Of a stretch of 64,000 nt of DNA, positions 5,251 to 63,367 are shown one piece after another. Source of the DNA: a virus. The notes beneath the pieces are model-generated. The model did no database searches and was not told where the DNA came from. It worked only from the letters and a program-made list of their open reading frames with translations. The stretch's first letter is position 1; the number at the start of each line of letters is the position of its first letter. The translations under genes were made by a program, and so were the position numbers. Where the stretch lies: the IMG/VR virus record IMGVR_UViG_3300017991_000003, positions 128,001 through 192,000 of that record; one strand, written 5' to 3'.

Positions 5251-5432
5251 AGAGGGAGTGCCCCGCCGGCCGGAGCCGACGGGGCGAGTGCCTGTCTTTC
5301 CAGACTGTCCGCCCCGTTCGTATCATGCGCTAGGGGCTCTCGACAGTTCACTACGCCGCCATGCGGACGTCGGTGTTGGCATTTGAAAGCCAGAAGGTAC
5401 AGACGCCACCGGGCAACTATTCTCTGCTCGTA

Positions 5433-7541: not shown

Positions 7542-7567
7542 GTGTGGCACTGGCTAGGAGTGTCAGG
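7542..7567 (-). repeat. copy (a) of conserved element CTGACACT-N5-CCAGTGCCA (minus orientation)
   Basis: Minus strand reads CTGACACTCCTAGCCAGTGCCACAC immediately 5' of the ATG of 7110..7541; matches copies near 15076, 39081, 45321, 63303. Confidence 0.6.
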
Positions 7568-14198: not shown

Positions 14199-14258
14199 GG
14201 TGTTGGGTGGTGAGGGTGTCTCCGGGTAGACATCCCCGGATCATTAGACTTATGCCCT
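14199..14258 (-). promoter_or_regulatory. shared leader (copy 1 of 42-nt direct repeat) plus GKCATRAGTC motif copy 2
   Basis: 42 nt identical to 15869..15910; contains TCCGGG/CCCGGA inverted repeat; GGCATAAGTC (minus) at ~14248-14257. Confidence 0.5.
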
Positions 14259-15075: not shown

Positions 15076-15105
15076 GCTGGCACTGGCTCCCAGTGTCAGT
15101 CTTCT
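15076..15105 (-). terminator. copy (b) of conserved element CTGACACT-N5-CCAGTGCCA followed by T-run (leftward terminator candidate)
   Basis: Minus strand reads CTGACACTGGGAGCCAGTGCCAGCC then TTCTTTTTT; sits between convergent genes. Confidence 0.5.
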
Positions 15106-15114: not shown

Positions 15115-15483
15115 TCACTCGGAGACGGCTCCAGCGGCTCGCATGGCCAGCGAGTGCAGGTAGTCGTACCGGTCCTTGAAGACATCGAAGGCCACAGTGC
15201 GGAGCTCGGCCTGGACCCAGGTGGCGTACTCGACCGGCGGTTCTTTCTGGATCAGCTCTTCAACGATCTCCCGAGGGAGGTAGGCGATGATCCAGTTCAT
15301 GTCGTCCACGCGTCCCCCAGATCCCGGAGGTCCGAAGCCCAGCTGGTGCACAGCGTACTGAGCGCTTTCGATGAAGTCCTCGGGAACGTCGAAGTCGTCT
15401 CGCCGGCCAGCAGCGAGCACCATGGCGGCCCAAGCCGCGTGGATACCTTGCCGGTACCCGCGCAGGTATTCGTCTTTAGTCAT
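15115..15483 (-). CDS. hypothetical protein (122 aa)
   Basis: Track ORF; 8-nt overlap with upstream gene. Confidence 0.55.
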   Translation of the reverse strand: MTKDEYLRGYRQGIHAAWAAMVLAAGRRDDFDVPEDFIESAQYAVHQLGFGPPGSGGRVDDMNWIIAYLPREIVEELIQKEPPVEYATWVQAELRTVAFDVFKDRYDYLHSLAMRAAGAVSE

Positions 15484-15868
15484 GGTTAGGAGGGGTTTGG
15501 CAGGTCTGGTAGATGCGGGCCATCTGGTCGAGCGCCGTCAACCGGATGGTGATGATCTTGCGGGCCACGTTTGCGACGGTCGCGCCACTGCCCTGCCGCA
15601 TCGACAGCTTGTGCGGCCGGGTCTGAAGGAGCTCAACGAGGTCCGTGTGAGCGAGGCGCTCGCGGAGGTCGGTGACGTACTCCGTGAGGAAGCCCTGAAG
15701 CTCCCCCGGCGGGTTGGCGGTCAGGACTGCCTTGGCCCTCGTGGGCGCGGTCCCGTCGAGCTGGCTCTGGAGGCGATCCCCGAAGGGAATCTGGGAGACC
15801 AGCTCGGCCCAGAGCCAGTCCCGGGCCAGGACCGCTGCCTGGCTGTAGATCTTGTCGGCGTGCTTCAT
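15476..15868 (-). CDS. hypothetical protein (130 aa)
   Basis: Track ORF; preceded by copy 2 of the 42-nt leader. Confidence 0.55.
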   Translation of the reverse strand: MKHADKIYSQAAVLARDWLWAELVSQIPFGDRLQSQLDGTAPTRAKAVLTANPPGELQGFLTEYVTDLRERLAHTDLVELLQTRPHKLSMRQGSGATVANVARKIITIRLTALDQMARIYQTCQTPPNHD

Positions 15869-20800: not shown

Positions 20801-21594
20801 GCTTGACGCTGCTTCAACTTGGTGGCACGCCCTCGGGCAGCGACTACCAGAACCGACTGGCCCCGACGCTCAACAGCATCGGTCTTCCGCACCTAGCCCT
20901 CGGCAACGAGACCCTGGCCCCCACGGACTCCGATCGGCTGCCGACTGGTTTCGGTAGCTACAAGGCGCTGGTCCAGAGCGGGAAGCTGCCCACGAGCCCG
21001 GTGACGAGCCGCGGCTGGGCAGTGGCTAACCTGTCGGAGAACATCCCAGCTGTCCGAGTCGGTCCGGGCCTCAGCATCACGGCTGCGGGCTTCGTGGTTC
21101 CGAGCGATGTCCAGGCGGATCAGATCCTCCTGGGCACCACGTCTCGCGAGACCAGTCCGCGCGGGGTCTCGAGTCTTGCGCTTGTGCGTGACGGGGGATT
21201 GAGCAGCCCGGTCACGGATGGGGCGCTGGCGCTCGGCTACGACGTATCGGACTTCGAGGTCACCTCGGCGCTTGGCCTTGGCCGACGTCAGGCGTACCAA
21301 GAGGAGTACACGGGCGCCTCGGTTCCCGCAGCGGCGAGCGGGTACTACACCTTCGCTCTGACGCTGGGGAGCTCGCAAGGCCTTGTGCCCGGCACGGTGT
21401 CGGTCCACGTCAACGGCCTACGTCTCGAAAGCCCCTTCTTCAGCTACACCAGCCCCTCGATCACCTCGAAGGAGGTGTACCTCAACGAGTCGGCAAGCCC
21501 TGGCCCCAACCTGGCCTACACGTTGAGCCAGTCTACTAGCCCGGACGTTCTTGACCGGGTTGTCATTCGCTATCGAACCCGTCCGACCTCATGA
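17806..21594 (+). CDS. large fibre-like structural protein (1262 aa)
   Basis: Repeated G-L-x-x-x-x-G-x-L-x-V type segments typical of fibrous phage proteins; numerous SPSP motifs. Confidence 0.75.
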   Translation: MAEFKDCQSPSPLTGRIGPDLIEEVGGVSLAGVLAGTETLPVGAIPVTAPLYDSPSPTGTAIGLRLDSSLTVDAQGRLSIAGAPSPAAHASSHEPGGSDPITPAAFDGLITPPVATTVVLGGVKDGDGVSIAGDGTLTLDLAAASGLEISGGTLRLALGTGVSFSGNDLVLDEATDSTLGGIIAGTGLSVSSGTASLNAPQVTGASLAGSTLVWDTSPSAQSPSPALRLPASFTYTKAIPQSQLPTAAYGSPGSSSPSPQLGLVRIYGPSEGLTLSDGLLSLATPISTDHLPTATGLGGRGIVRAGLLDGTGVYVSNSTTGQLAILIDATSDTLALSSSGIKVKSNRFLALTGTGNLPSPAASPSPGTDGWMTGSVRFTNDLGEPAIRTGNQRIRYEFGASPSPGAILASADLSDLLTYQEISTLISQAELGVEVWTPGRPVQAEPGTSLGALAELSAGDRFLTSTSSNTNPGGDWNAHNCVFAVWTETAPDTFTWVYETPTVNTWFTDDVTGDTWAVVVGSPSPKSPSPNPSREAFRYRARQDDTASTARAGRVRVPTTSGLVMDGEDIRLSLASDIGVSTGLRLITRARNNALALDLSRSQGILELNSDGRLQVAASSIQATEIADNTIVLDNLAADQVTGGTKDFIATQYDGLSVRLVGDSEDFRVTGAPVSTATTILIHTEDGIGVAEESINTDALSDEAVSYSKLLMPTASGLEDNGQDKVRVKLQTRSGLERTVDGLAVNIHDVVDDATIELDTSTGGLRVKTGSLTSSYFASGLAISASVLTLGAPMLSSSGLLTFCYQSPLVLTGSPGCLTIGEGLISSPYLGTGSVSYAKLKLASPSGITQTAGGIKVDISTGLAFSGNQIVVDQVPADAMALDADSALYAASPTSPLTQLELSIRVSSPFTQTGGTLDLADEGVQVSHLDRSKLRGSFLASGLEAGLGTQTSPFDSWVTSPAFYTGSDAPGMRVATRTRSDHDYLDAAGQGQGTFEPYSLTLLQLGGTPSGSDYQNRLAPTLNSIGLPHLALGNETLAPTDSDRLPTGFGSYKALVQSGKLPTSPVTSRGWAVANLSENIPAVRVGPGLSITAAGFVVPSDVQADQILLGTTSRETSPRGVSSLALVRDGGLSSPVTDGALALGYDVSDFEVTSALGLGRRQAYQEEYTGASVPAAASGYYTFALTLGSSQGLVPGTVSVHVNGLRLESPFFSYTSPSITSKEVYLNESASPGPNLAYTLSQSTSPDVLDRVVIRYRTRPTS

Positions 21595-31805: not shown

Positions 31806-31838
31806 GACGCCTGCTCTATCTGGCACTGGTACCTAGTG

Positions 31839-32039
31839 TCAGCCTTCGTACAGCTTCTGGACCGATGTCCCCAGCGCCTTGGCGATCTTGCTCATGGTCG
31901 GCCACTTAGGGATGAAGCGGCTGTGCTCGGCAGCGTTGATGTACTGACGCTCTTTACCTACACGTCGACCCAGCTCAGCTTGGCTCATATTTTTAGCCTC
32001 GCGTAGCTGGGCGATTCGATCTCCGGGGGAGTCACTCAT
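31839..32039 (-). CDS. XRE-family helix-turn-helix transcriptional regulator (66 aa)
   Basis: MSQAELGRRVGKERQYINAAEHSRFIPKWPTMSKIAKALG matches the Cro/C1-type HTH pattern; lies immediately upstream of the promoter-like motif. Confidence 0.65.
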   Translation of the reverse strand: MSDSPGDRIAQLREAKNMSQAELGRRVGKERQYINAAEHSRFIPKWPTMSKIAKALGTSVQKLYEG

Positions 32040-35053: not shown

Positions 35054-38000
35054 ATGACTTCGGACAAGGTCTTTCAGTCGGACTCGCTCTTCGACTACCT
35101 CCCCAGCTACTGGAAGAGCTCGTTCGGCGACCGCCCGGTCCTCGAGACGGTCTACGAGGCCCTCGTGCGGTCCATGGACGTGGACTGGGTGCGCCTATTC
35201 GCTGCTAACGACACGCGCGAGCTCGCCACCACTCCTGTCACCACCACCCACACGCTAGTCCACCAGCCTCTGGGCAGCTGGACGAGCCTAGAGGTGGCTC
35301 ACGGTCACTACCATACGTGGCTGGACTGGCCGGCGGCCACTGGGAGCCCCGAGACCTATGTGATTCGACTGGAGGACCACGTCCTCACGCGTCCGCGGCT
35401 GTTCTTCGACGGCCGGGCCATCCCCAGCTTCCTCTATCGCCTGGATACGAGCCACTGGTCTAGTGGCGGCTCGGTGGTCTACGGCACCACCATCACGTTC
35501 GACAAGGCTCAGCTCGATTCCTTCCTCGACGGTAGCTATCTGAGCCTGCAAGGCCAGTCAGGCGAGAATACGAGCCAGGAGTGGACCCCTGCTGATGTCA
35601 TCGAGCGGCTCGGGATCCTCGCCTACAGGGATCAGCGCCCCTTCACGGGGTCTGGAGACGCCTCCACCACCGCGTTTGAGTTCACGATCGGAGGGTCCGC
35701 GGCTGTCGTAGAGGCTTTTGACGCAATGGCTTACGTCGAGAGCATCGACGTCACAAGCCGTGTCACGGTCGCCGCCGTTACAGGCGGTTTCAGCATCACT
35801 CCCAAGCCCGCAGGCGGCTTTGGGGCCGGGATGCTGCTTCAAGCCACGTTTGACGACGACTCCCAGCAGCTCGTTGAGCTCGACAGCGGTACCGGTTCTG
35901 TGACACTACGAACCAGTGCCAGCTCCGTGACTGGGGTTCGGCTCTTCGTGAACATCCCCCTGGGGGAGCAGCACTACACCGTCACCTCGAGCGCTGTTGA
36001 GCTGCTCGGTGGCGCTGTGTTCCCTGGCGGTACGATCCTCAGAGTCAAGGACGCCAAGGGCATCCAGTCCAAGACGCTCACCGAGCCGCGCTCCCGGGTC
36101 ACCTTTGACCGGGACATCGACACCAACAGCGCTCAGGTCCTCTACCAGGGCACCGATGTGCTCGCCACCGAGGTCTCGACCAGCGGCATCACCTTCGAGC
36201 GCCCCCTCAATAGCGGCGCCCGATGGCGTGTGGATGCTCCTGTGGTGGTGGATCACGACCACGCCCTCTACCGCACAGCTACGGACGGTACGGCCAACAT
36301 CGCTATCCCCACGGCCCGCCCGCTGACACTGGCAGGCAGTGCCACAGATGAGGATTACCCCATCCTCCTGTTCGTGGACGGCGTGCTTCAGGACCCGAGC
36401 ACCTACAGTCCCAGCTCCACGGTCAACCTGGTCCTCCAGTCGCCGCTCCCCTCGGGAATCCCAGTGGATGTGTGGTACGTGGACCAGGAGGAGCCGGCTG
36501 AGCACCTGCACAGCGAGCTCAGTGATGTGGTCCCCCTCTCGGTCCCCGAGCAGTACAGCGTCAGCTACAGTCAGGCTGAGACCTTCGACGACACCACCTG
36601 GCCCCTCACGGTCTTCAGGGACGGCTTCCTGGAGAACGACCCTGACCAGATCCGCACGGTCGACGGCCAGTTCCTTCAGTTCACTGACGCGCTGACCCCG
36701 GGCATCAGGGTGGCGGCCGACGGTCTGCGCACAGAGTTCCGGTACGCCCACACCATCCCCCATAGGGAGGACCTGGACTACGGCTACCGTGGGGACATCC
36801 AGGAGATCGGCACGCTCCAGGACGGGGTGATGAGCCCCAGCTCGGTCAAGAGCCCGGACACCGGCTTCAGCCTCACCCCAGCGGCCAGCCCGGCTGAGAC
36901 AGCTACCCTCAAGGCGTCCATCACCTGGGACGAGGCGTGGCTAACCGGTGTGAAGGTGGATGAGCACCTGCTCGAGACCACCTGGGGTGATCCTGTGGGT
37001 ATCAAGCGACCGGTCAGCTCGACCCGCTACCGCAACCTGCTCATGGCTGTGTACGCAGCCTACCGCGGCCCCAGCTTCGTCGACAGCCTCGTCAACGTCA
37101 GCTCTATCCTCCTAGGCTCGGCCTTCCTACCCACCGCTGGCGTGAGTGGGGGCATCACGCGCTCCTCCACCGGCGTCCAAGTCCTCATCGAGCCCACGGA
37201 CCCCAAGGAGAGCCCGTACACCGTTGACCTGCTCCCTGGTGAGGAGCATCGCATCCTGCCGGCTCCCCGTGAGATGTCTCGGCTCCGCGCGGTCAACAGC
37301 CTCGCCACTGTTAGTGACCGTAGTCTGGACGACATCCCCTGGCTCGCCTTCATGGCCCAGGACGTGGCTGAGGACTACTCGTACGCCAAGCGGCTGGATG
37401 TCAGGAGCTCGAGCAGCTTCAGCAGCATCCCGGCCGGCTACGACAAGACCACCGGCCACCTCACCGACTACAGCGTCAACTACAACGACCAAGAGGTGTG
37501 GGTCGGTGATCTCATCAAGCTGACACTGGTTGCCAGTGCCAGTCCCACGTCTATCATTCAAACCTACACGAGTGATGGCACGTCTCCTCAACAGGTGCAG
37601 CGGCTCGTCTACGACTCGAGCCAACCGACAGCCCGCCTCAGGGCGCATGTCGCCTCACCGGCGGTAAGTACTTACAAACCCGGCCATTACGTCAATCTAG
37701 AGGGTGCTGGGAGCCCCTGGGACACCCTCACCGGCGAGTACTACCAGCTCACCAACGTCAGCCCCGGCTACGCAGCTAGCACTACCAGGCTCACGGCTGA
37801 GTGGATCAGCAGTCACGCTGCTCCCACCATCACGGCTGTCGACTACACGGCGTCTCCTTATCCCGAGCTCCAAGGCTACAACCTCAGCCAGAGCACGAGC
37901 ACGCCTGACTTCCAGTCCTACACGCAGTTCACCACGGTGCAGGAGGTCCTCGGGGATCACACCATCCGGGTGAGCTTCGACGCTACCAGTGAGGTCACCG

Positions 38001-41000
38001 GCTACGGCGATGAGACTTACGGTGAGCTAGGCTTCGGCGGTGGGGTGCTGGACCCTGTGCCCTCGGCCTACACCATCTGGAGCCGGCGCACCCGCCAGCT
38101 AGACACCTACCTATCCCTGGACCAGGCGCTCGATGAGAGCGTGGCCCTGGTCCCTGGTGAGACGGTCCAGATCCTCAACGAGGAGCTCAGCGCTCTCCTG
38201 TCCACCCACGTCTTCGCCATGGAGCTAGCGTGGGATCGGATGACGGACCGGGAGACCCTGGAGGACCTCAAGGTCGTCATCGACCGCATCCGGCCTGCTG
38301 AGACGCGCGCCCTGGTCTACACCGAGGGCTTCCCGACCCTCAGCCTGGAGATGACTGGCTCGCTCATCGGAGGCAGCCCCGACATCACCGAGACCCTGGC
38401 CGACTCGCTCTTCCTGGAGGAGAGCTGGATGGGCACGGGGTCGACCGCACTGCTCACCCCGGAGCTCAACTACCTCTACCGCCCCTGGCAGCACCGCTTC
38501 GGTCCTCGCCTCGAGTCCCAGCTCAAAGAGCCGCCGGCAAGTCCTGTGGTGGGTGGCTTCTACGCCGTGGCTCCCGTAGGCCAGGCCAGCCATCTTGGCG
38601 TGTGGGCCAGTGTGTACGGATCCAAAGGCCTGGAGGGCCAGGTCCTCCGCCGCGGGTCCCCGGATGAGTGGTTGGTTGACAGCGGCTTCAGTCCCGCTCC
38701 GGGGTGGGCGCTCGATTTCAGCTCGGGTGTGCGCCGGCTCAACTCCGGCCCCTTCACCCACAACGAGGGCAGCCCGCTCACCATGCGGGCCCTGGTCTAC
38801 GTCCCCAGTGGTAGCTACAGCGAGGCAGGCACGGTCTATGTGGGCCAAGCGAGCCCCATGCTGCCCTTCGGCTTCGAGGTCCAGAGCCCTGGCCTGACCC
38901 TGGCGCCCTTCTTCCAAGTCCACAGCAGTGAGACCAAGGCACTGGGTAGCCCCACCAACTACTACGACCGCTGGCTGGATCTGGTGGGCGTGTACCGAGA
39001 GGGTGCGGCCAGCTACTGGTACACCGACCTGTACCTGGATGGGACGCTGATCGCCACGAGCAGCCCCACGGGCGCCGCGTCTCTGACACTGGCTCCCAGT
39101 GCCACATTCAGCCTCACGCTGGGTGGCACGACCCAGTCGACCCCCACCCAGAGCCCCAGCTTCAAGGGCTACCTGGACGAGTACCGCCTGTACCTGGGTA
39201 CCGAGCTCTCGAGCCCCGAGATCACGACCCTGTACAACGCCGGCTCCCCTGTGATGCCCTCGATCGGGGTCACGGACGCTGGTAGCCCCATCGCACCGGC
39301 CGGGATCACCGCCTGGTACGTGGGCCAGGAGCATGATCCGGCTACGGTCATCGATCTGAGCGGTAATGGGTACAACGCTAGCCGCCAGACGGCCACGCTG
39401 GGCGACGAGAACCAGGACTGGCGGGTGGCCGGGTACCTTCAGACCCGCTACCGCCTCTTCGGCGACACCTACGAGATCAAGCTGGGCGGCTACTACGTCG
39501 ACCAGGGCAAGCTCACGACCACGCTGCTCGGTACGCCCCCGAGTCTGCTTAGCGACTCGCCTGACTCGCAGACCGCCGCTATCGATGCTGGCGGCCAGCC
39601 TCTCCTGATCCCCGGGGTCTTCGGCTTCAAGGACGTGGTCTACACGAACCAGACCCGCTGGCTGCACTACAAGGACCTCGAAGGCTGGATCATCACCCTG
39701 GCTAACCCCCAGGCGCCAGGCTCGGCTATCTCGGTGGACCAGGAGGGCAACCTAGGCTCCCAGAGCCCCACCACGGCCCTTGCCTCGCCCCTGAGCATCA
39801 CCGGTAGCCGCCTGACCCTCACCTGCGCCGCGGGTAGTGGTGGTGCTGTGACCCAGCTGGAGCTCGATGGTAGCCCGCTGCTGGTCAACACCCTCAAGGG
39901 CCAGCTGACCCAGTGGTCCTGCCGCTACCTGGGCAGGGGCTTCGAGCGTACTGTGAGCGAGGCCGGCAAGATCAGCCGCCCCGTGGCTCAGCCGTCCAAC
40001 TCCGACTTCATCTCCAAGGAGTCCGGGGACACGGCGATCCGCACGGCGAGCTACCTCGGCAACATCCAGGGCACGATGACCTACGACGGGACGCTCTACG
40101 ACTCGAGCGCCACCCGCCTGGACAAGCTCATGGAGGTCGGCTTCAACGCCAACCCCAACGTGATCCGCGTCGACGCCATCTTCGATCGGGATCAGAGCAC
40201 CAAGGACGGCTCCTGGTACAGCCAGTTCACCATGAGCCTGGTCCCGGAGCTCAACGTGGCCTGGCTCTACCAGCCTGGGGTCGACTCCGTGCCGCTCCCC
40301 GCCGTGTTCAACGGCGACGTGAACTACCAGACCAACTGGGTGGGTGGTGCGATCTACACCAACGCGGCCCAGGACAAGGCTGTGGGCGTGTTCCACCGCC
40401 GGCCGAACACGGATACGGGCTGGTTCCAGTCCCAGGTGCTCCCGGCCCCTGCGTCGGCTGTTTCCAAGAGCAGCCCGGGCAGCACGTCGTATTCGGTGCT
40501 CAACGATCAGGAGTTCCTGGGTGATTACCCCGGCGCGGCTGACAGCATCTGGCGCACGGAGCGCTACATCGTGTCCGGTACGCTCACAGAGGTCGTCGGG
40601 GGGTTCAACCAGCTCGCCTATGAGCTGGAAGGCATTGAGCCCATCGTTACGGGGCCCGAATCGGCCACCTACATCGAGTTCACAAGCCTCCCGGACCCTC
40701 TGACGCTCGGCGACACCTTCTCGGTGACCGCTCAGGCCTTTGGTCCGGGCGGGTTGATCGACCCGAACTTCGATCGGCAGGCCTATCTGACCCTCCTGAC
40801 GCCTGGTGGCACGCTCACGGGCACCACTACGGGTACGTTCGCCTCCGGTGAGGTCACGTTCAGTGGTCTCGAGGTCTCCCCGGGCGGTACCTGGTTCCTC
40901 CAGGTCGACTCGGGCGGCCTAGCGCCAGGCCAGGCAGCCATCCAGGTCAACAACCCCGCTCCGTACGCCTCGAACCCCACGGCTTGGGCCATCAGCCCGG

Positions 41001-44000
41001 CCCAGGTGCCTCTCACGCTGTACGGTACGGACTTCCTGGACACCTCGTTCGTGGTCTACTCGAACTGGGGCGGTACTCCGAGCCCCTATCCGTCGACGCT
41101 GACCTACGTGAGCCCGGGTGAGGTGCAGTTCACGCCTCCCCAGGAGATCCTGGACAGCTACCCGAACACGCTGACGCTCTCGGTCCACAACCCCGGGCCT
41201 GGTGGCGGCTCTACGGGTGAGCTCCCGCTTACGATCGGCAGCCCCGGCGTACCGAGCCCGGTTGTCCCGAGCCCCGTGGCCGACTTGCTGCTGTTCACGG
41301 CCCCGCCTAGCCTGCCCATCACCCCGCGCGTGGGTGAGAACACGCTGATTGGCGGTTATGCGGCGGACTCCACGCTGTCTCTGGCGCTGGATGTGGACGC
41401 TACGGGCGCCGTGACGGTCAGCCCGAGCGCCCAGCCGGCGGGTTCGAGCATCGGCGGCACCCTGACCCAGTCCCTGGGCGCCTCGATCCCCGGTTACGTG
41501 TTCTTCCCGAACCTAACCTTTGATACCGCAGGCACTTACACGCTCAACCTGGTCCACGAGAGCCCCGCGGTCATCGCCCAGACGCCGTTGGCGCTCAACC
41601 TGAGCGTCCTGAACCCGGTCCCGACGCTCACTAGCATCGACCCGGACAACATCGACCAGGGTGCGCAGACCCTGACGCTACGGGCGCTGGGCTCGAACTT
41701 CGTGAGCGGTGACTCCAGCATCTACTGGAACGGTCTCCAGCGGACCACGACCTATGTGAGCCCAGGTGAGCTACGTACTACGCTGACCGCGGCGGACTTC
41801 CTGGTGCCCCAGGTGGTGGGTGTGAAGGTCAACACGGCCCAAGGCGGTGGTGACTCGAGCACGATCCCCTTCACCATCAACGGCGCGCCTGGCTCTGGCC
41901 TCACTGAGGAGGACCTGAGCCCCACGATCATCGTCCTGAGCCCCTCGGCGTACCAGCGGGTGCTGCCCACGCAGGGTCCTGTGATCACTACCGAGGAAGG
42001 TGTGTCCCTGCACCGGGCCTTGGAGCAGACTGGCCTCGCTACGGCAGGCACTCCTATCCACGCCTACGACGGATCGGTGGGCGCTATCGAGGTCGTCGAG
42101 GTCCGAGCCGGTGCCTACAAGGCGATGGCCACCGGTGACGACGTCTTCAAGAGCGACAAGAACCGCAACGTGGCGGTCCCGCACGCGCCTGATTCCGACC
42201 ACCCGCTCATCATCCGAGCGGCCAAGTGGTCCGCGGCTCGTGCCCCTGAGCCGGACATGGTGGGTGATCCTGAGCCGTACGTGCTCGTGGCCCGTTTCCC
42301 TGACTTCGGTAGCGAGGACGTGATCTTCCACGACCGGTCGCTCGAGAGCAGTCATTGGCACTGGTACGACCCGATCCTGTTCCTGGGTAGCCGGGGCGGG
42401 ATGCTGATCGCCGACAACAAGATCTACGGCGCCAACGACCCCACCATCCCGTGGCTGGGCTGGCACATGTACCGGCCGAAGGTCCTGGGCCGCTACGACC
42501 ACCGGGTGTACCGCCTGGATTCGGATCGCTGGATCGTGGGCCCGGGCCCTGACACAGCCTCGATCACCCAGTACGACACCACGGGCGTCGAGATCAGCCC
42601 CAAGTCCTGGGACCTCGATGACCTGCACCGGGCTCGCTTCGGCAAGCGCCTGACCAGCTCCAACGGCATCACGTCGGGCTTCGCTTCGCTGACCTCGGTG
42701 CCTGCGGGCCAGATCACGGCCACCCACGTGGGCGTGTTCGGCAACGATGCGGACACGCTCTACCGCGTGGGCGTGGCTAGCACGGCCGGCGGCCTGATCC
42801 AGACCGATCTGGGTCTCCTGAGCGTCTTCTCGTCTGATGCGGCCCTGACGACTAGCGACTTCATCGCCTCGGCGCCCTTCGATCCCATCACGAGCCCCAA
42901 CCAGTACGCCAGCCCTCCGTCCCTGAGCTACAGCATGGACGTGACCTGGCAGTCCAGCAGTACGTTTGATGCTGTGCCCGGGGCCGGGGGTACGATCCAG
43001 TTCTACGACCGCAAGGATGACGAGACCCTGTCGCCCAGCACGCTGCTCACCGCGGGCGGTACGGTCAACGTGCCCCTCGAGCAGGGCATCGGCGCCGCTT
43101 TCATGGCCTTCACGGGCCGTGGCTGCTACGTCCTCAAGACCACGGTCAAGGACGAGTGGGGCAACCCGGTCCCCGACCCGGAGGACCCGGATAAAGATCT
43201 GACTCGGAACAGCATTATCCAGGTCACGAACCACGGGATGAGCGACAGCCCGACGAGCCTGGAGGTGGTCTATGACCTGCCTGATCAGGAGATGCTGTGG
43301 TTCTCCAACATCACCTGGGCCGCAGGGCAGAACATCGGCTTCATGGGCCCGTTCAGCCTGCTGCTGGAGGCGCGCACGAGCTCGGGCGCCCTCTCGATGG
43401 AGGTGGACGGTACGGTCCAGGTTCTGATCGACAGCTTCGAGACCGTGGAGGGCACCGCCATCGGCACGCCCTTCCTCTCCTCGAACGAGATCACGCACAT
43501 CATGCGCGGCGGGGTCTGCCACATCCGGGACCTGCACCCCTACATCACGAGCATCAACCCCGAGTCCTTCCAGGCGTTCCTGGATCAGAACTCGGCCTCC
43601 AACTACGCGATCCTCACCCTCACCCTCACGCCGTTCGGCACGGGCACGGGGCTAGACAGCCAATCTACTACTTACCAGATCGGCGTGTGGCCTCCGGGGG
43701 CCCAGCGCGGTGAGAGCCCGGGCTCGATCCCTGTGCCCTTCTCGGTCTATCCGTGGGGCGCGCGTCTGACGGACAAGGAGTGGCTAGGCCCGAACCTCAA
43801 CGAGTTCGCGCTCACTCTGGCGCCCTCGGACACGATCCAGGGCATGGAGAGTGGTGCACCGGTCAACGCCAAGGTCAAGACGGCTATCGGCCTGCCCTTC
43901 TGGGCCGGCTGGCCGGGCTCGCCTGGGCACCCCAACTACCGCCCGGGTTACGAGAACATCTGGCCCAAGCCCGAGCACACGCCTGGGCTCGAGTACATCG

Positions 44001-45274
44001 GCTACCCGACCTTCGACGTCCAGCCCAAGTGGGGTCTCGCGCCCTTCTACACGAGCGACTGGATTTTCGACGGCGGTGTGATCATGAACGTGGGCGTCGA
44101 GCATGGCGTCTACCTCCACAACACGGTCGGCGACACGCGCTTCAGCAACACGATCATCACTCGCGTGGGTCGGACGGCCATCCAGAAGGCCGATCGACGC
44201 ATCGAGAACCCCTACGACCCGGTCCTTGTCGGCACGGGCGGGGACACGGGCGGCCCAGGTCAGGGTCAGGTCATCTACCGCAACGTGCAGGCATCCGAGA
44301 CGGCGCTGAACGACGGTGGCGGGTCCTACACCATCGTGGGCCACGGCCCCGACGGGCAGATCACGATGGAGAACTGCTCCATCCGGCAGGGCTTCGACGA
44401 CCAGCTTGCCGCTCACCGCTACATCAGCGGCAACGGCATGTTCGGCACCATGTTGACGGTCTGGGGCGGCTGGTTCCCGGGCTACTCGGACCATAGCTTC
44501 TGCCTGACGGGCATGGGCTATCAGTTCGACGGCCTGCGCCGGTGGCATCCGTTCTTGCGTAAGGCCGACGGTAGTTCGGTGTTCACCAACGACGAGTACC
44601 TCACCCACCTGACCAACAAGTACGACGTGCTGGGTCTTTCGGGCGTGCTTGGGGACTACGGTGGTGTCCCGGTTCCGACACCTCCCCACTACACCAACCT
44701 GCTCTACGGCGCCCCGATGTTCTCCTACGGGGGCGTGCAGGACCTGGGCCTGACTCTGGGCCAGGAAGCGGCCGGTATTCGCGAGCCCGTCTTCACGGGT
44801 ACGGACGCGACCTACGGGATGGGTAGCCCCACCTACGCGAGCTTCCATCAGACGGGCACGCTCACGATCACGGGGTGCCTCTTCGAAGCTAACCACCCGA
44901 ACGCCACGAGCGACGCCGAGGTTACCTGGTCGCAGCCCCTGCCCAGCCTCAACCCCTACGGCTCGATCTACAAAGGCGGTACCTACAGCTCGGCGCCGGC
45001 GCTGCTCGTCAGTGACGTGCGCATCCTGACCCTCCAGGACAACATCATTCACCAGACGGGCAACCAGGCGATCCAGTTCGACGAAGTGGCCTACGTCTGG
45101 GACAGCCCCCAAGCCAAGGCCACGGGCAAGGCGACGAAGCTCATCACCAAGAACGCCGCTATCTGGCAGATCCTGGGCGGCAACAACGAGCTGATCTCCG
45201 CCGCGGTGGTCAAACGCTATGGCCAAGACGCTCCGGCGGAACTTGTGAGTCAGCTAACGAGCCCGAGCACCTAA
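35054..45274 (+). CDS. giant multidomain fibre/adhesin-like structural protein (3406 aa)
   Basis: Uninterrupted 10.2-kb ORF; LamG/concanavalin-like motif (FKGYLDEYRLYLGTELSSPEITTLYNAG), repeated IPT/TIG-like Ig segments (NPVPTLTSIDP...YVSPGE...), C-terminal beta-helix-like repeats (NIIHQTGNQAIQF); frequent [A/S/G]SP motifs. Confidence 0.8.
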   Translation: MTSDKVFQSDSLFDYLPSYWKSSFGDRPVLETVYEALVRSMDVDWVRLFAANDTRELATTPVTTTHTLVHQPLGSWTSLEVAHGHYHTWLDWPAATGSPETYVIRLEDHVLTRPRLFFDGRAIPSFLYRLDTSHWSSGGSVVYGTTITFDKAQLDSFLDGSYLSLQGQSGENTSQEWTPADVIERLGILAYRDQRPFTGSGDASTTAFEFTIGGSAAVVEAFDAMAYVESIDVTSRVTVAAVTGGFSITPKPAGGFGAGMLLQATFDDDSQQLVELDSGTGSVTLRTSASSVTGVRLFVNIPLGEQHYTVTSSAVELLGGAVFPGGTILRVKDAKGIQSKTLTEPRSRVTFDRDIDTNSAQVLYQGTDVLATEVSTSGITFERPLNSGARWRVDAPVVVDHDHALYRTATDGTANIAIPTARPLTLAGSATDEDYPILLFVDGVLQDPSTYSPSSTVNLVLQSPLPSGIPVDVWYVDQEEPAEHLHSELSDVVPLSVPEQYSVSYSQAETFDDTTWPLTVFRDGFLENDPDQIRTVDGQFLQFTDALTPGIRVAADGLRTEFRYAHTIPHREDLDYGYRGDIQEIGTLQDGVMSPSSVKSPDTGFSLTPAASPAETATLKASITWDEAWLTGVKVDEHLLETTWGDPVGIKRPVSSTRYRNLLMAVYAAYRGPSFVDSLVNVSSILLGSAFLPTAGVSGGITRSSTGVQVLIEPTDPKESPYTVDLLPGEEHRILPAPREMSRLRAVNSLATVSDRSLDDIPWLAFMAQDVAEDYSYAKRLDVRSSSSFSSIPAGYDKTTGHLTDYSVNYNDQEVWVGDLIKLTLVASASPTSIIQTYTSDGTSPQQVQRLVYDSSQPTARLRAHVASPAVSTYKPGHYVNLEGAGSPWDTLTGEYYQLTNVSPGYAASTTRLTAEWISSHAAPTITAVDYTASPYPELQGYNLSQSTSTPDFQSYTQFTTVQEVLGDHTIRVSFDATSEVTGYGDETYGELGFGGGVLDPVPSAYTIWSRRTRQLDTYLSLDQALDESVALVPGETVQILNEELSALLSTHVFAMELAWDRMTDRETLEDLKVVIDRIRPAETRALVYTEGFPTLSLEMTGSLIGGSPDITETLADSLFLEESWMGTGSTALLTPELNYLYRPWQHRFGPRLESQLKEPPASPVVGGFYAVAPVGQASHLGVWASVYGSKGLEGQVLRRGSPDEWLVDSGFSPAPGWALDFSSGVRRLNSGPFTHNEGSPLTMRALVYVPSGSYSEAGTVYVGQASPMLPFGFEVQSPGLTLAPFFQVHSSETKALGSPTNYYDRWLDLVGVYREGAASYWYTDLYLDGTLIATSSPTGAASLTLAPSATFSLTLGGTTQSTPTQSPSFKGYLDEYRLYLGTELSSPEITTLYNAGSPVMPSIGVTDAGSPIAPAGITAWYVGQEHDPATVIDLSGNGYNASRQTATLGDENQDWRVAGYLQTRYRLFGDTYEIKLGGYYVDQGKLTTTLLGTPPSLLSDSPDSQTAAIDAGGQPLLIPGVFGFKDVVYTNQTRWLHYKDLEGWIITLANPQAPGSAISVDQEGNLGSQSPTTALASPLSITGSRLTLTCAAGSGGAVTQLELDGSPLLVNTLKGQLTQWSCRYLGRGFERTVSEAGKISRPVAQPSNSDFISKESGDTAIRTASYLGNIQGTMTYDGTLYDSSATRLDKLMEVGFNANPNVIRVDAIFDRDQSTKDGSWYSQFTMSLVPELNVAWLYQPGVDSVPLPAVFNGDVNYQTNWVGGAIYTNAAQDKAVGVFHRRPNTDTGWFQSQVLPAPASAVSKSSPGSTSYSVLNDQEFLGDYPGAADSIWRTERYIVSGTLTEVVGGFNQLAYELEGIEPIVTGPESATYIEFTSLPDPLTLGDTFSVTAQAFGPGGLIDPNFDRQAYLTLLTPGGTLTGTTTGTFASGEVTFSGLEVSPGGTWFLQVDSGGLAPGQAAIQVNNPAPYASNPTAWAISPAQVPLTLYGTDFLDTSFVVYSNWGGTPSPYPSTLTYVSPGEVQFTPPQEILDSYPNTLTLSVHNPGPGGGSTGELPLTIGSPGVPSPVVPSPVADLLLFTAPPSLPITPRVGENTLIGGYAADSTLSLALDVDATGAVTVSPSAQPAGSSIGGTLTQSLGASIPGYVFFPNLTFDTAGTYTLNLVHESPAVIAQTPLALNLSVLNPVPTLTSIDPDNIDQGAQTLTLRALGSNFVSGDSSIYWNGLQRTTTYVSPGELRTTLTAADFLVPQVVGVKVNTAQGGGDSSTIPFTINGAPGSGLTEEDLSPTIIVLSPSAYQRVLPTQGPVITTEEGVSLHRALEQTGLATAGTPIHAYDGSVGAIEVVEVRAGAYKAMATGDDVFKSDKNRNVAVPHAPDSDHPLIIRAAKWSAARAPEPDMVGDPEPYVLVARFPDFGSEDVIFHDRSLESSHWHWYDPILFLGSRGGMLIADNKIYGANDPTIPWLGWHMYRPKVLGRYDHRVYRLDSDRWIVGPGPDTASITQYDTTGVEISPKSWDLDDLHRARFGKRLTSSNGITSGFASLTSVPAGQITATHVGVFGNDADTLYRVGVASTAGGLIQTDLGLLSVFSSDAALTTSDFIASAPFDPITSPNQYASPPSLSYSMDVTWQSSSTFDAVPGAGGTIQFYDRKDDETLSPSTLLTAGGTVNVPLEQGIGAAFMAFTGRGCYVLKTTVKDEWGNPVPDPEDPDKDLTRNSIIQVTNHGMSDSPTSLEVVYDLPDQEMLWFSNITWAAGQNIGFMGPFSLLLEARTSSGALSMEVDGTVQVLIDSFETVEGTAIGTPFLSSNEITHIMRGGVCHIRDLHPYITSINPESFQAFLDQNSASNYAILTLTLTPFGTGTGLDSQSTTYQIGVWPPGAQRGESPGSIPVPFSVYPWGARLTDKEWLGPNLNEFALTLAPSDTIQGMESGAPVNAKVKTAIGLPFWAGWPGSPGHPNYRPGYENIWPKPEHTPGLEYIGYPTFDVQPKWGLAPFYTSDWIFDGGVIMNVGVEHGVYLHNTVGDTRFSNTIITRVGRTAIQKADRRIENPYDPVLVGTGGDTGGPGQGQVIYRNVQASETALNDGGGSYTIVGHGPDGQITMENCSIRQGFDDQLAAHRYISGNGMFGTMLTVWGGWFPGYSDHSFCLTGMGYQFDGLRRWHPFLRKADGSSVFTNDEYLTHLTNKYDVLGLSGVLGDYGGVPVPTPPHYTNLLYGAPMFSYGGVQDLGLTLGQEAAGIREPVFTGTDATYGMGSPTYASFHQTGTLTITGCLFEANHPNATSDAEVTWSQPLPSLNPYGSIYKGGTYSSAPALLVSDVRILTLQDNIIHQTGNQAIQFDEVAYVWDSPQAKATGKATKLITKNAAIWQILGGNNELISAAVVKRYGQDAPAELVSQLTSPST
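39081..39106 (+). repeat. copy (c) of conserved element CTGACACT-N5-CCAGTGCCA embedded inside the giant CDS
   Basis: CTCTGACACTGGCTCCCAGTGCCACA matches the intergenic copy at 45321..45346 at 23 of 26 positions; encodes SLTLAPSAT. Confidence 0.55.
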
Positions 45275-45320
45275 CCTCTGAGTACGGCTTCCCTTACACT
45301 AACCCCCGGTAGGCACCAGT

Positions 45321-45346
45321 CTCTGACACTGGTAGCCAGTGCCACA
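45321..45346 (+). repeat. copy (d) of conserved element CTGACACT-N5-CCAGTGCCA (intergenic, 3' of giant gene, ~17 nt before next start)
   Basis: CTCTGACACTGGTAGCCAGTGCCACA; CACTGG/CCAGTG can form a 6-bp stem with 3-nt loop. Confidence 0.6.
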
Positions 45347-51761: not shown

Positions 51762-52081
51762 TTGAGCACCTGCTAGCTGGCCTACTCGATGGACTCGAGA
51801 AGGAGGCCGGCCGTGCGCCGCGTGCTCCTGAGTACAAGGTCCTCGATAAACATCGAGTTGCCTTGACGCCTGGCGAGCGCGCCTACGTCATGGACAACAA
51901 GGCCGTCTGGCACCGCGCGTGGAAGAACGGCAAGCAGGTGCCCAGTCCTGCTGTCTGGAAGGCTGTCATGCCCGACGGTAAGGTTTGGTACGTGACCAAC
52001 ACGCATCGGGTTATGAACGCGCGCCCCACGGTGCGTGGGGCTGTTAGCCGCTACCACAAGTTCATCAAGACCACGGCATGA
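51758..52081 (+). CDS. hypothetical protein (107 aa), GTG start
   Basis: Track ORF; GTGA overlap upstream and ATGA overlap downstream. Confidence 0.45.
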   Translation: MIEHLLAGLLDGLEKEAGRAPRAPEYKVLDKHRVALTPGERAYVMDNKAVWHRAWKNGKQVPSPAVWKAVMPDGKVWYVTNTHRVMNARPTVRGAVSRYHKFIKTTA

Positions 52082-53160
52082 GCCAGCGCTTCGCCACCAC
52101 CCACCAGGCGGTCAACCTCCTGCGTAACGGGAGCCTCGAGATGGTCGAGGCCCTGGACAGCGGTGCGCAGAAGCCCCATTTCTGGTCATTCGACGCCCTG
52201 ATCCACGAGGCGCTTCAAGATGCGGTCGTGGTAAACACCTTCGAGGTCCTTCAGGAGGATCCTGGACCGGCCCCGGCTAGCCGGTTTCGTGTGGAGCTTG
52301 TCACGGGCGAGCCCTCCAAGCTCTATCAGGACACGACCCGGGACGCCTCGGTCCACGTCCAGGATTTCCCGGTCCCGCTAGCGCCGTCGTTGAAGCCGGC
52401 GCTGCCGCAGGGCCACTTTTCTACCGAGGTCCACGCCCTCCCCAAGGGGGATTACACGCTCTCCTTCGATGTTCGGGCCTACCAAGGCACCGTGTCGATC
52501 GATCCAGCTGCTTGGGACCTCGTCGGAGCGGTGCAGACGCCGACCTACCCCACTGGCCAGACTTCCGTGACACTGGGAGCTAGTGCCATCTGGCGCCGGA
52601 TCACCATCCAGTTCTCGGTCGACTACGCCCTGGGCGGTGTCGGGCTCCAACTAGAGCGCACAACGTCCTCCGGTCTGGCTGTGGTAGAGATCGGCAACGT
52701 CATGTTGGCTCAGGGGCACTACCGCTACCTTCCGTACACCGGCGACCCGCTCCTCTCGGCCATCCCCAAGGGGGCGATCATCCTCACCATGGGGTCTGTG
52801 TGCCCTCCTGGCTTCGAGGAGATCGGCGAGGATGGTCTTGAGCCTCTGCCTGAGTGGGTGGCTGATGAGCCCAACATCCTGGCACGCAAGGGTAACTACC
52901 CGCGCGAGGGCACGGAGCTAGTGGGAACGACCTCGCATACTGTGGATGCTGTCGAGATCACTCCGGGCACCACGGATGCGCTCGAGTTCTCCGGTCCCGA
53001 CAGCAAGGTGGTTGATGGGACTCTCGTCGACACCTCCAAATCCAATCCGGCGACGGACGAGCCCGGCGGGTCTCAGGGCGTCCCGGAGCATGATCACACG
53101 ATTGAGACGGCAGGTACGCGGCCGGTGAGCCGCGGCTACCTCCTTTGCCGGCGCATCTGA
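52078..53160 (+). CDS. tail-fibre protein with CBM-like N-terminus, collar-like domain and C-terminal HxH motif (360 aa)
   Basis: AVNLLRNGSLE (carbohydrate-binding-module-like start), IILTMGSVCPPGFEE (tail-collar-like), PEHDHT near C-terminus; paralogous to the next two fibre genes. Confidence 0.7.
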   Translation: MSQRFATTHQAVNLLRNGSLEMVEALDSGAQKPHFWSFDALIHEALQDAVVVNTFEVLQEDPGPAPASRFRVELVTGEPSKLYQDTTRDASVHVQDFPVPLAPSLKPALPQGHFSTEVHALPKGDYTLSFDVRAYQGTVSIDPAAWDLVGAVQTPTYPTGQTSVTLGASAIWRRITIQFSVDYALGGVGLQLERTTSSGLAVVEIGNVMLAQGHYRYLPYTGDPLLSAIPKGAIILTMGSVCPPGFEEIGEDGLEPLPEWVADEPNILARKGNYPREGTELVGTTSHTVDAVEITPGTTDALEFSGPDSKVVDGTLVDTSKSNPATDEPGGSQGVPEHDHTIETAGTRPVSRGYLLCRRI

Positions 53161-58499: not shown

Positions 58500-58768
58500 T
58501 GGCCCGTCCTGCTGTAACCCTCTACTACCAGAGCAACTGCGGTTTCTGCCCAGATGCGATTGAGGGGTGTGCGGGCCTCGTAGAAGCCCTGGGTGCTCCT
58601 ATCCTTATTCGTAAGCCGACTTTGCAGGAAATGAAGTCCGGGCAGATCCCTGGCTATCCCGCCCTGTTCGTGCCGGCTGGGGTCCGAGGCCTCACCCGCC
58701 CCTATCTCCTGGTAGGTGCGGCCCTCCCCGACCTCCTTGACCAGTTGCTGAGCTCCACGGATGGCTGA
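58499..58768 (+). CDS. glutaredoxin/thioredoxin-fold small redox protein (89 aa)
   Basis: TLYYQSNCGFCPDA: CxxC active-site-like motif in a beta-alpha start typical of glutaredoxin-like proteins. Confidence 0.55.
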   Translation: MARPAVTLYYQSNCGFCPDAIEGCAGLVEALGAPILIRKPTLQEMKSGQIPGYPALFVPAGVRGLTRPYLLVGAALPDLLDQLLSSTDG

Positions 58769-63302: not shown

Positions 63303-63324
63303 CTGACACTGCTGGCCAGTGCCA
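63303..63324 (+). repeat. copy (e) of conserved element CTGACACT-N5-CCAGTGCCA (3 nt after stop of 1512-aa gene)
   Basis: CTGACACTGCTGGCCAGTGCCA. Confidence 0.55.
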
Positions 63325-63367
63325 GCTATCAACCCTCTTGATATCCTCCGGATATACCGAAAACGCT

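What the first reader, a model, noticed from the sequence alone, without database searches (positions are those of the whole stretch)
39081..39106. Copy of the conserved element embedded in-frame inside the 3406-aa gene
The internal copy matches the copy directly downstream of the same gene at 23 of 26 positions while encoding SLTLAPSAT. This may mark an ancestral gene boundary (fusion of two fibre genes), an internal promoter or processing site, or a recombination linker used to exchange fibre modules.
Basis: partly seen in the sequence, partly recalled or inferred. Interest (0 to 1): 0.45.

Follow-up and report, generated by a model that had tools for sequence, protein, structure and literature searches.

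The report
Palindromic control site inside giant gene
The flagged bases are one of about a dozen copies of a 23-base directional palindrome scattered through an uncultured large phage; this copy is written into a giant tail-protein gene with rare codons, is kept in related phages, and is most likely a docking site for a regulatory protein, not a gene-fusion scar.

Summary
Window 39080-39105 matches 45320-45345 at 23 of 26 bases, and 39080-39106 reads in frame as SLTLAPSAT (codons 1343-1351). It is not a lone pair. The window holds 11 strict copies of TGACAC-N9-GTGCCA (0.3 expected), always with a 9-base spacer and the same asymmetry. Ten of the 11 point the same way as the local gene. Four lie inside the 3406-aa gene, all in one reading frame, and all use the rare codons ACA and AGT.

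Four related phages have a continuous 3435-4231-aa orthologue, and the site falls inside a Laminin_G_3 domain. Gene fusion and module-exchange readings are therefore rejected.

Two internal sites (37520 and 39083), the gap after the giant gene, and the stop codon of a 66-aa XRE-type HTH gene all carry a palindrome in relatives. The palindrome sequence is specific to each genome and changes in concert across sites.

Best reading is a selected, polar cis-element recognised as DNA by a sequence-specific factor, possibly the adjacent HTH protein, acting like an operator or roadblock. An RNA or single-strand hairpin role is not excluded.

The closest known cases are the Cluster O 17-bp dyad repeats and the Cluster A stoperators of mycobacteriophages. 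I rate it a new variant of a known kind.

The parts
39083..39105 (+). The finding: in-frame copy of the 23-nt element, CTGACACTGG-CTC-CCAGTGCCAC. With its TCT prefix and the following A it encodes SLTLAPSAT (39080-39106), codons 1343-1351.
   Evidence: A palindrome is kept at the same place, give or take 1-2 codons, in relatives B and D.
45323..45345 (+). Intergenic copy, CTGACACTGG-TAG-CCAGTGCCAC. It lies 48 nt after the giant gene's stop and ends 18 nt before the GTG start of the next gene.
   Evidence: A genome-specific palindrome occupies the same place, also ending 18 nt before the GTG, in relatives D, B and E.
37520..37542 (+). In-frame internal copy (LTLVASAS, codons 823-830), 9 of 10 Watson-Crick pairs.
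   Evidence: The orthologous site is a palindrome of the host genome's own type in B and E.
36323..36345 (+). In-frame internal copy (LTLAGSAT). It is window-specific and arose by substitutions with no length change.
35900..35922 (+). In-frame internal copy (VTLRTSAS), GTGACACTAC-GAA-CCAGTGCCAG.
31820..31842 (-). Copy overlapping the TGA stop of the 66-aa HTH gene, CTGACACTAG-GTA-CCAGTGCCAG on the - strand. A separate terminator-like hairpin follows it.
   Evidence: A palindrome sits at the same place in D and E.
31839..32039 (-). 66-aa XRE-family helix-turn-helix protein, the candidate factor that binds the element.
   Evidence: Pfam HTH_3 E=2.7e-11. Orthologues occupy the same locus in B, D and E.
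7544..7566 (-). Copy in the divergent intergenic region, 2 nt before the ATG of the - strand gene 7110..7541.
15077..15099 (-). Copy between convergent genes, 15 nt after a - strand stop. It is the only copy followed by a T-run.
18271..18293 (-). Copy inside the 1262-aa gene 17806..21594 (+). It is the only copy oriented against its gene.
52567..52589 (+). In-frame copy (VTLGASAI) in gene 52078..53160, window-specific.
63303..63325 (+). Copy 3 nt after the stop of the 1512-aa gene 58761..63299.
35054..45274 (+). The 3406-aa gene that hosts four copies. It lies directly downstream of a baseplate-wedge gene.
38768..39223 (+). Laminin_G_3 (concanavalin-like) domain, residues 1239-1390, which encloses the finding.
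45291..45301 (+). CCTTACACTAA, the window's version of the GCTTTACACTA motif conserved upstream of the intergenic copy in five genomes. It may be a -10-like promoter element.

Best explanation
The flagged sequence is one member of a dispersed family of 23-bp directional pseudo-palindromes, CTGACACTGG-N3-CCAGTGCCA(G/C). The phage keeps these both between genes and, using rare codons, inside coding sequence. The copy at 39083 is under selection as a nucleic-acid signal, not as a peptide, and it marks no gene or domain boundary; that much is shown. Inferred: the element is read as double-stranded DNA by a sequence-specific, probably dimeric, phage-encoded factor. The 66-aa XRE-type HTH protein, whose stop codon lies inside one copy, is the only candidate found. 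The copies would then work as operators or polar roadblocks that modulate transcription through and beyond the 10-kb tail gene, in the manner of mycobacteriophage stoperators. Each phage lineage has its own version of the site, and all copies in a genome track that version.
For: Family and statistics:
- There are 11 exact TGACAC-N(1-25)-GTGCCA matches against 0.32 expected, all with a spacer of exactly 9 nt, even where the inner 'stem' pairs are broken.
- The symmetric variants have 0 copies.
- 10 of 11 copies are co-oriented with the local gene, p=0.006.
- 5 of 11 lie in the roughly 11% of the window that is non-coding.

Selection at the nucleic-acid level:
- Every sense-strand in-frame copy (the five at 35900, 36323, 37520, 39083 and 52567) uses ACA (5% of Thr codons) and AGT (7.6% of Ser codons).
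- The peptide pattern [LV]TL..SA[ST] occurs only at the four copies inside the giant gene.

Comparative evidence:
- The 39083 site is a family-type palindrome in B (GTGGTACCGGctaCTGGTGCCAC) and D (GTGGTACCGActaCCAGTACCAC).
- The 37520 site is a palindrome in B and E.
- The gap after the giant gene carries one in D, B and E, always ending 18 nt before the GTG.
- The HTH stop carries one in D and E.
- Sequences are genome-specific (window GACAC/GTGCC, B GGTAC, E GATAG/C) while the giant proteins are only 53-59% identical.
- 6 of 10 pairs show double changes; 0 of 500 shuffles reach the observed covariation score.
- Anchored palindromes number 11 against 0.7 expected (window), 4 against 0.25 (B), 3 against 0.15 (D) and 2 against 0.15 (E).

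DNA rather than RNA:
- The spacer length is fixed and its sequence is free.
- Positions 2, 3, 6 and their partners 18, 21, 22 are invariant and 7/17 nearly so, while the spacer-proximal pairs are broken in about 23% of cells each.
- Apart from position 4/20, G.U-type and A.C-type mismatches are 7 against 7, so there is no strand signal.
- The sense-strand RNA hairpin at the finding is unremarkable, -8.2 kcal/mol, z = -1.0.
- At the HTH gene a separate conserved terminator hairpin follows the element, so the element is not itself the terminator there.

HTH link:
- The HTH gene is identified.
- The four phages with an orthologue of at least 50% identity all have the palindrome family.
- The two distant relatives without one (F, I) have no such family in the 22-43 kb seen for each.
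Against: - Nothing here shows binding or any effect on transcription.
- A symmetric dimer does not explain the strict A4/C20 asymmetry in the window.
- The best-conserved half-site cores are about 15 bp apart centre to centre, which is unusual for a small HTH dimer.
- The HTH recognition helix is nearly identical in B, D and E although their sites differ.
- No family palindrome lies in the promoter region of the HTH operon.
- An apparently unrelated viral contig (C) carries three window-type copies with the same polarity, but no close HTH orthologue was found in it. Only 31 of its 91.6 kb were seen.
- The correlation between HTH and element rests on one clade.
- Within-genome uniformity could also come from gene conversion.
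Confidence: 0.4

Rival explanations
1. The element acts as a single-stranded hairpin. It could be an RNA stem-loop (a processing, stability or pausing signal in the long late transcripts). It could also be a DNA hairpin or cruciform on the template strand, read by a polymerase, primase or nuclease that co-evolves with it.
For: The element is a 10-bp stem with a 3-nt loop and shows compensatory changes. In the window the fixed A.C on the sense strand becomes G.T on the template strand, and the antisense or template hairpins are stable (-13.9 to -17.1 kcal/mol, z -2.2 to -3.6). The state series A-T (E), G.T (window) and G-C (B, D) at pair 4/20 is the classic wobble pathway on that strand. Many copies sit at or within 50 nt of stop codons. 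One copy has a T-run like an intrinsic terminator. The polarity is strict.
Against: The loop is always 3 nt even when the closing pairs are broken. The sense-RNA hairpins of the finding and of the intergenic copy are no better than shuffles (z -1.0 and -0.5). Outside pair 4/20 there is no wobble bias towards either strand. Only 1 of 11 copies has a T-run, and the terminator scan at 45200-45420 finds nothing. A separate terminator follows the HTH-end copy. There is no Rfam match. No virion RNA polymerase, primase or HUH nuclease was recognised in the window.
Confidence: 0.27
2. The copies are kept uniform by gene conversion or spread as a short selfish repeat. They have little or no function for the phage.
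For: All window copies share the same asymmetric state, as expected from copying a master sequence. Copy number and positions turn over between relatives: 36323, 35900 and 52567 are window-specific.
Against: The internal copies arose by substitution with no length change and no flanking homology that could drive conversion. Four positions kept a palindrome through about 45% protein divergence. Rare codons and amino-acid changes are tolerated to keep the sites. The copies are enriched in intergenic DNA and co-oriented with genes.
Confidence: 0.1
3. The direct repeats are substrates for recombination. They would drive programmed deletion or shuffling within the giant gene, or exchange of fibre modules between phages.
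For: The copies at 39080 and 45320 are direct repeats exactly 6240 nt (2080 codons) apart. Recombination between them would give a 1358-aa product ending at a nearby TGA (read directly from the sequence).
Against: The shared stretch is only 23-27 bp. The element differs between phages, so it cannot guide exchange between them. All relatives are collinear, and no truncated or rearranged versions of the gene appeared among the contigs seen. No recombinase was found among the scanned ORFs. Copies occur at many places unrelated to fibres.
Confidence: 0.04
4. The copy is a scar of an ancestral gene boundary, from the fusion of two fibre genes.
For: It resembles the copy that lies in a true intergenic gap.
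Against: The orthologue is continuous in every relative, including one with only 26% protein identity. The site is inside a Laminin_G_3 domain. Three further copies sit in the same gene.
Confidence: 0.02

Closest known systems
17-bp dyad repeats of Cluster O mycobacteriophages (5'-TGTTCGGNNNCCGAACA; Cresawn et al. 2015, PMC4351075)
   Same: Both have inverted half-sites separated by exactly 3 bp of free sequence. Both occur as many copies dispersed through a phage genome, with about a third inside coding regions and many in short intergenic gaps. In both cases the function is unknown, and the authors of the Cluster O work also proposed sites for a dimeric DNA-binding protein.
   Different: The sequence differs and the half-sites are longer (10 bp against 7 bp). 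There are fewer copies: 11 strict copies (12-13 counting weaker matches) in 64 kb, against 34 in 70 kb. The window's version is strictly asymmetric and co-oriented with genes, whereas the Cluster O sites show no meaningful orientation. The Cluster O genomes are near-identical to each other, while here the sites can be followed across 53-59% protein identity with lineage-specific sequence change. The phage lineage is unrelated, uncultured and has contigs of about 175-193 kb.
Stoperators of Cluster A mycobacteriophages (L5 gp71-type repressor sites; PMC6550527, PMC9283540)
   Same: [quoted passage not shown] Most are not at promoters. Each phage has its own consensus, and some sites are syntenic between phages.
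   Different: Stoperators are 13-bp asymmetric sites bound by a monomeric two-domain repressor of a temperate phage. This element is a 23-bp pseudo-palindrome. No evidence of lysogeny was found, and no binding protein has been demonstrated.
Dispersed palindromic sites of ParB/KorB-type proteins (chromosomal parS, RK2 KorB operators, N15 centromere repeats); from my own knowledge, not tested here
   Same: These are short palindromes scattered over a replicon, some inside genes. They are specific to each replicon and are bound by a dimeric HTH protein.
   Different: No ParA or ParB gene was seen in the window, only a faint HTH_ParB hit of the 66-aa protein (E=0.009, below the cut-off). Those sites are symmetric and not oriented with genes.

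Membership tests
Cluster O-type dispersed dyad repeats (kind, not sequence family) | Two inverted half-sites separated by a fixed 3-bp spacer of free sequence | tested here: met
The spacers vary: TAG, GAG, GTA, CAG, TTG, CTC, GAA, TGG.
Cluster O-type dispersed dyad repeats (kind, not sequence family) | Many copies dispersed through the genome, a substantial share inside coding regions | tested here: met
   11 strict copies between 7.5 and 63.3 kb; 6 of 11 are fully inside ORFs.
Cluster O-type dispersed dyad repeats (kind, not sequence family) | Consensus TGTTCGGNNNCCGAACA | tested here: not met
   The consensus here is CTGACACTGGNNNCCAGTGCCAS. This is therefore not the same sequence family.
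Stoperators (Cluster A mycobacteriophages) | [quoted passage not shown] | tested here: met
   10 of 11 co-oriented, p=0.006.
Stoperators (Cluster A mycobacteriophages) | Genome-specific consensus that varies along with the cognate repressor | tested here: inconclusive
   A genome-specific consensus is shown. Covariation with the HTH protein is not shown: the recognition helix is almost the same in B, D and E.
Stoperators (Cluster A mycobacteriophages) | 13-bp asymmetric site bound by a monomeric immunity repressor of a temperate phage | tested here: not met
   The site is a 23-bp pseudo-palindrome. No integrase or other lysogeny gene was found among the scanned ORFs.
Stoperators (Cluster A mycobacteriophages) | Bound repressor blocks transcription elongation | not testable with these tools
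   This needs binding and reporter assays.
Intrinsic (rho-independent) terminators | G+C-rich hairpin immediately followed by a T/U run | tested here: not met
   Only the copy at 15077 has a T-run. The scan of 45200-45420 finds none. The HTH-end copy is followed by a separate terminator-like hairpin.
Invertase/shufflon crossover sites in tail-fibre genes (Gin/Hin/Cin type) | Sites in inverted orientation flanking an invertible segment, with a recombinase gene nearby | tested here: not met
   All five copies in and after the giant gene are in direct orientation. No recombinase domain was found among the scanned ORFs. There is no alternative fibre end on the opposite strand.
REP elements / RAYT | Hundreds of copies in a host chromosome, with a TnpA-like RAYT gene | tested here: not met
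   The exact-pattern scan of 185,579 species genomes gave 3 single hits in unrelated taxa and no multi-copy genome.
N4-type hairpin promoters for a virion RNA polymerase | 5-7-bp stem and 3-nt loop on the template strand, a few copies at early genes, and a giant virion RNA polymerase gene | tested here: not met
   The 3-nt loop and a stable template-strand hairpin are present. However, the giant ORF carries Laminin_G_3 and weak TIG matches and no polymerase signature, the copies lie mostly in structural genes, and one sits between convergent genes.
Rfam RNA families | Match at the gathering score | tested here: not met
   Only two tRNAs match in the window.

The most novel reading that the evidence does not exclude
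The elements are polar signals read as template-strand DNA hairpins or cruciforms; the conserved A.C on the sense strand is a G.T wobble on the template strand. A phage enzyme that co-evolves with them would use them for internal initiation or arrest of transcription or replication inside a 10-kb structural gene. That would be a hairpin-signal system written through coding sequence in an uncultured lineage of phages of about 180 kb.
Probability: 0.1. Interest if true: 0.7.

Novelty: new variant of a known kind. Interest (0 to 1): 0.42.

Why it matters
Dispersed dyad repeats that run through phage coding regions have been described, but their function remains unknown (Cluster O). Here, related genomes show that such intragenic sites are kept in place while their sequence changes in step with every other copy in the same genome. 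That is direct evolutionary evidence that the sites are functional and are read by a factor with lineage-specific preferences. It also shows a cost: rare codons and altered residues inside a folded lectin-like domain. For annotation, the practical lesson is that such a repeat inside a giant gene should not be read as a fusion point.

Tried and rejected
- **Chance:** rejected by shuffles.
- **Peptide repeat as the cause:** rejected by codon rarity and by the non-coding copies.
- **Gene fusion or domain boundary:** rejected.
- **General promoter motif:** the conserved TACACTA motif upstream of the intergenic copy occurs only once in the window. No sigma-70-type promoter or terminator is found around 45200-45420.
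- **Internal translation start:** the GTG 18 nt after the internal copy (39123) is out of frame and has no ribosome-binding site (read).
- **Host-derived repeat:** metagenome and species-genome scans gave only single, apparently chance hits, and none of those loci encodes a relative of any window protein.
- **Searches that led nowhere:**
  - megablast and tblastn against 50,697 cultured phage records: no match;
  - homologue search with the whole giant protein: timed out;
  - homologue search with residues 1100-1600: found nothing;
  - pattern-based locus searches with three window proteins: failed;
  - tblastx: uninformative noise;
  - PDB profile search of the LamG region: no hit;
  - single-sequence AlphaFold model of residues 1220-1410: unusable, pLDDT 32.6.
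- **HTH link tests:**
  - the search for the HTH protein in viral contigs found only relative B, not contig C;
  - no operator-like palindrome lies in the divergent promoter region of the HTH operon;
  - the last viral scan with a baseplate alignment added only phage I again.
Full report
**Observation**

The 26-mer TCTCTGACACTGGCTCCCAGTGCCAC lies at 39080-39105, one base left of the reported coordinates. Its only other match in the window at up to 3 mismatches is 45320-45345, with 3 mismatches, all three in or next to the central spacer (GCTC versus GTAG). No such match occurred in 100 shuffles. Identity extends to 27 of 31 bases. ORF 35054..45274 is 3406 aa, and 39080 is the first base of codon 1343. 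The stretch 39080-39106 reads TCT CTG ACA CTG GCT CCC AGT GCC ACA = SLTLAPSAT.

**What the element is**

The core is a 23-nt pseudo-palindrome, CTGACACTGG-N3-CCAGTGCCA(G/C).

- A degenerate search found 10 sites, counting once each site that matched on both strands, against 0.03 matches expected.
- A gap-tolerant search for TGACAC-N(1-25)-GTGCCA found 11 copies against 0.32 expected, every one with exactly 9 nt between the two hexamers.
- The copies are at 7544(-), 15077(-), 18271(-), 31820(-), 35900, 36323, 37520, 39083, 45323, 52567 and 63303 (all +).
- The two symmetric versions, TGACAC..GTGTCA and TGGCAC..GTGCCA, have no copies at all. The element is therefore strictly polar: A at position 4 faces C at position 20.
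- Ten of the 11 copies point the same way as the gene they lie in or next to (p=0.006).
- Five of the 11 lie in the roughly 11% of the window that is non-coding.

All four are in the same frame: VTLRTSAS, LTLAGSAT, LTLVASAS and LTLAPSAT. A fifth in-frame copy lies in gene 52078..53160. The shared frame is partly forced, because one alternative frame reads TGA. That TGA serves as the real stop codon of the HTH gene in the window, of two genes in relative E, and of a sigma-70-like gene in contig C.

**The signal is nucleic acid, not peptide**

In the large structural genes, ACA makes up 5% of Thr codons and AGT 7.6% of Ser codons. Every sense-strand in-frame copy (the five listed above) uses both. 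The peptide pattern [LV]TL..SA[ST] occurs only at the four copies inside the giant gene. Five copies lie wholly or partly outside ORFs.

**Relatives**

The window belongs to an uncultured phage lineage.

- Its own baseplate protein occurs on contigs of 174,660 and 193,018 bp.
- Nothing similar exists among 50,697 cultured phage records.
- The gene upstream of the giant ORF is a baseplate-wedge protein.
- Homologues of the two genes flanking the giant ORF led to phages B (L005/L006/L023/L036), D (L020/L033), E (L026/L034), F (L029/L038) and I (L039/L042).
- Each carries one continuous giant ORF at the same place: 3435, 3449, 3440, 4231 and 3636 aa.
- The window protein aligns to B over residues 1-3306 in a single segment.
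- Pairwise identity among the window, B, D and E is 53-59%; to F it is 26%.
- Pfam Laminin_G_3 matches residues 1239-1390 above the gathering score in the window, B, D and E. Codons 1343-1351 therefore lie inside a folded domain.

**Conservation with concerted change**

The gap after the giant gene carries a conserved GCTTTACACTA motif followed by a dyad with 10-bp arms and a 3-bp spacer, ending exactly 18 nt before the GTG of the next gene. The dyad sequence differs by genome:

| Genome | Dyad after the giant gene |
|---|---|
| Window | CTGACACTGG-tag-CCAGTGCCAC |
| D | GTGGCACTAG-cta-CCTGTGCCAT |
| B | CTGGTACCGG-aaa-CCAGTACCAG |
| E | ATGATAGTGG-cac-CCACTATCAT (perfect) |
| F, G | none |

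The internal sites follow each genome's own version:

- **37520 site:** CTGGTACTAGtagCCGGTACCAG in B and CTGATACTGGcgtCCACTATCAG in E. It is lost in D.
- **39083 site (the finding):** GTGGTACCGGctaCTGGTGCCAC in B and GTGGTACCGActaCCAGTACCAC in D, displaced by one or two codons in an indel-prone Ser/Thr/Ala/Pro stretch. It is lost in E.
- **36323, 35900 and 52567:** window-specific. They arose by substitution with no length change.

An anchored scan (TG..A / T..CA, at least 7 of 10 pairs) gives 11 against 0.7 expected in the window, 4 against 0.25 in B, 3 against 0.15 in D, and 2 against 0.15 in E. On 22 copies, six of the ten pairs show changes on both sides, and no shuffle out of 500 reaches the observed covariation score. 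These sites are clearly maintained by selection, and some factor distinguishes the lineage-specific versions.

**A candidate reader**

ORF 31839..32039(-) encodes a 66-aa XRE-family HTH protein (HTH_3, E=2.7e-11).

- Its TGA stop lies inside the copy at 31820-31842.
- Orthologues of 50-62% identity occupy the same locus in B, D and E.
- A palindrome of the local type sits at the stop in D and E. It is absent in B, where the region is rearranged.
- In the window, D and E it is followed by a separate conserved terminator-like hairpin. The element is therefore not itself the terminator there.
- Phages F (only a 35%-identical, 103-aa HTH-like protein) and I (none within 10 kb) show no recurring dyad family in the 22-43 kb seen for each.

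This association is suggestive, but it rests on a single clade.

**DNA site or hairpin?**

Evidence favouring a duplex DNA site:

- The spacer length is fixed and its sequence is free, even where the inner pairs are broken.
- Positions 2, 3, 6 and their partners 18, 21, 22 are invariant and 7/17 nearly so, while the spacer-proximal pairs fail in about 23% of cells.
- Outside pair 4/20 there is no excess of G.U-type over A.C-type mismatches, 7 against 7.
- The sense-RNA hairpins at the finding and at the intergenic copy are no better than shuffles (z -1.0 and -0.5).
- Only one copy has a T-run.
- There is no Rfam match.

Evidence favouring a hairpin:

- The strict polarity.
- The A.C becomes G.T on the template strand, where the hairpins are stable at -14 to -17 kcal/mol.
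- The series A-T (E), G.T (window), G-C (B, D) at that pair.

Neither model explains everything. The asymmetry remains unexplained, as does its presence in contig C. That contig shares the window-type element and a second non-coding element, but it shows no detectable protein similarity to the window in the 31 kb seen, and a viral-contig search did not find the HTH protein in it.

**Comparison with known systems**

- **Closest in form:** the Cluster O mycobacteriophage repeat TGTTCGGNNNCCGAACA. It has inverted halves 3 bp apart and 34 copies, a third of them in coding regions. Its function is unknown, and it was proposed to bind a dimeric regulator (PMC4351075).
- **Closest in behaviour:** the Cluster A stoperators. 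There are 20-30 per genome, oriented with transcription, with a phage-specific consensus and some syntenic sites (PMC6550527).
- This element belongs to neither sequence family. It fails the defining tests for intrinsic terminators, invertase crossover sites, REP elements and N4-type promoters (see the membership table).

**Verdict**

It is a selected, polar, lineage-specific dyad element embedded in coding sequence. I judge it most likely a protein-recognition site acting on transcription (confidence about 0.4), with a single-strand hairpin role as the main rival (about 0.27). It is a new variant of a known kind, and interest is moderate.

Noticed in passing
window 14201-14254 and 15868-15921 (extending to about 86 nt); L002:9324-9409: A second conserved non-coding element. 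Two copies, 93% identical, lie directly upstream of two - strand genes (13854..14201 and 15476..15868). An 80%-identical copy occurs in the otherwise unrelated viral contig IMGVR_UViG_3300018080_003942, about 100 nt downstream of a sigma-70-like gene whose stop codon lies inside a window-type palindrome. It is probably a phage-specific promoter or leader.
   Followed up: partly
window 45291-45301; same gap in L020, L023, L026, L029: The motif GCTTTACACTA is conserved between the giant gene and the next gene in five genomes, including distant phage F, which lacks the palindrome. It occurs only once in the window. It may be a -10-like promoter element for the downstream gene.
   Followed up: partly
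window 31775-31806 (-): A conserved terminator-like hairpin, GGCGTCCGTGGCATAAGTCCACTGACGCC followed by a T-rich tract, lies after the HTH gene and its palindrome. It is also present in D and E.
   Followed up: partly
window 5004-5090 and 5165-5250 (-): Two tRNA-Leu genes (anticodons TAG and CAA). The long mechanical ORF 4413..5351 that overlaps them is spurious.
   Followed up: yes
window 50630-51346 (+): A PAS-domain protein (E=8e-11) is encoded among the tail and fibre genes. The same is seen in relative D. This is unusual for a phage structural module.
   Followed up: no
window 9552-12646 (+): A cluster of a sulfotransferase, two methyltransferases and two family-25 glycosyltransferases. 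It may serve surface or virion glycan modification.
   Followed up: no
window 28700-30930: Several families of 23-41-nt direct repeats (families D3, D7, D15, D16) lie within - strand ORFs. They suggest an internally repetitive, possibly coiled-coil, protein.
   Followed up: no
window 56967-56989, 60804-60826, 6079-6101: Weak, degenerate palindromes resembling the family: GTGGCATCGGAGACCGGTGCCAT, CTGACACCGGTTCCCGGTTCCAA and CTGGCGCAGGCAGCCAGCGGCAG. Two lie inside the 1410-aa and 1512-aa genes.
   Followed up: no
L036 4346-4368/4952-4974 and 4393-4415/4999-5021 (phage B): Two different perfect 23-nt palindromes are each repeated 606 nt apart upstream of the HTH region in B. This indicates a local tandem duplication.
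   Followed up: no
whole window and relatives: The lineage is uncultured. Contigs reach 175-193 kb, most proteins have no Pfam or PHROG match, and a giant ORF of 3400-4200 aa sits downstream of the baseplate-wedge gene in every member examined.
   Followed up: partly
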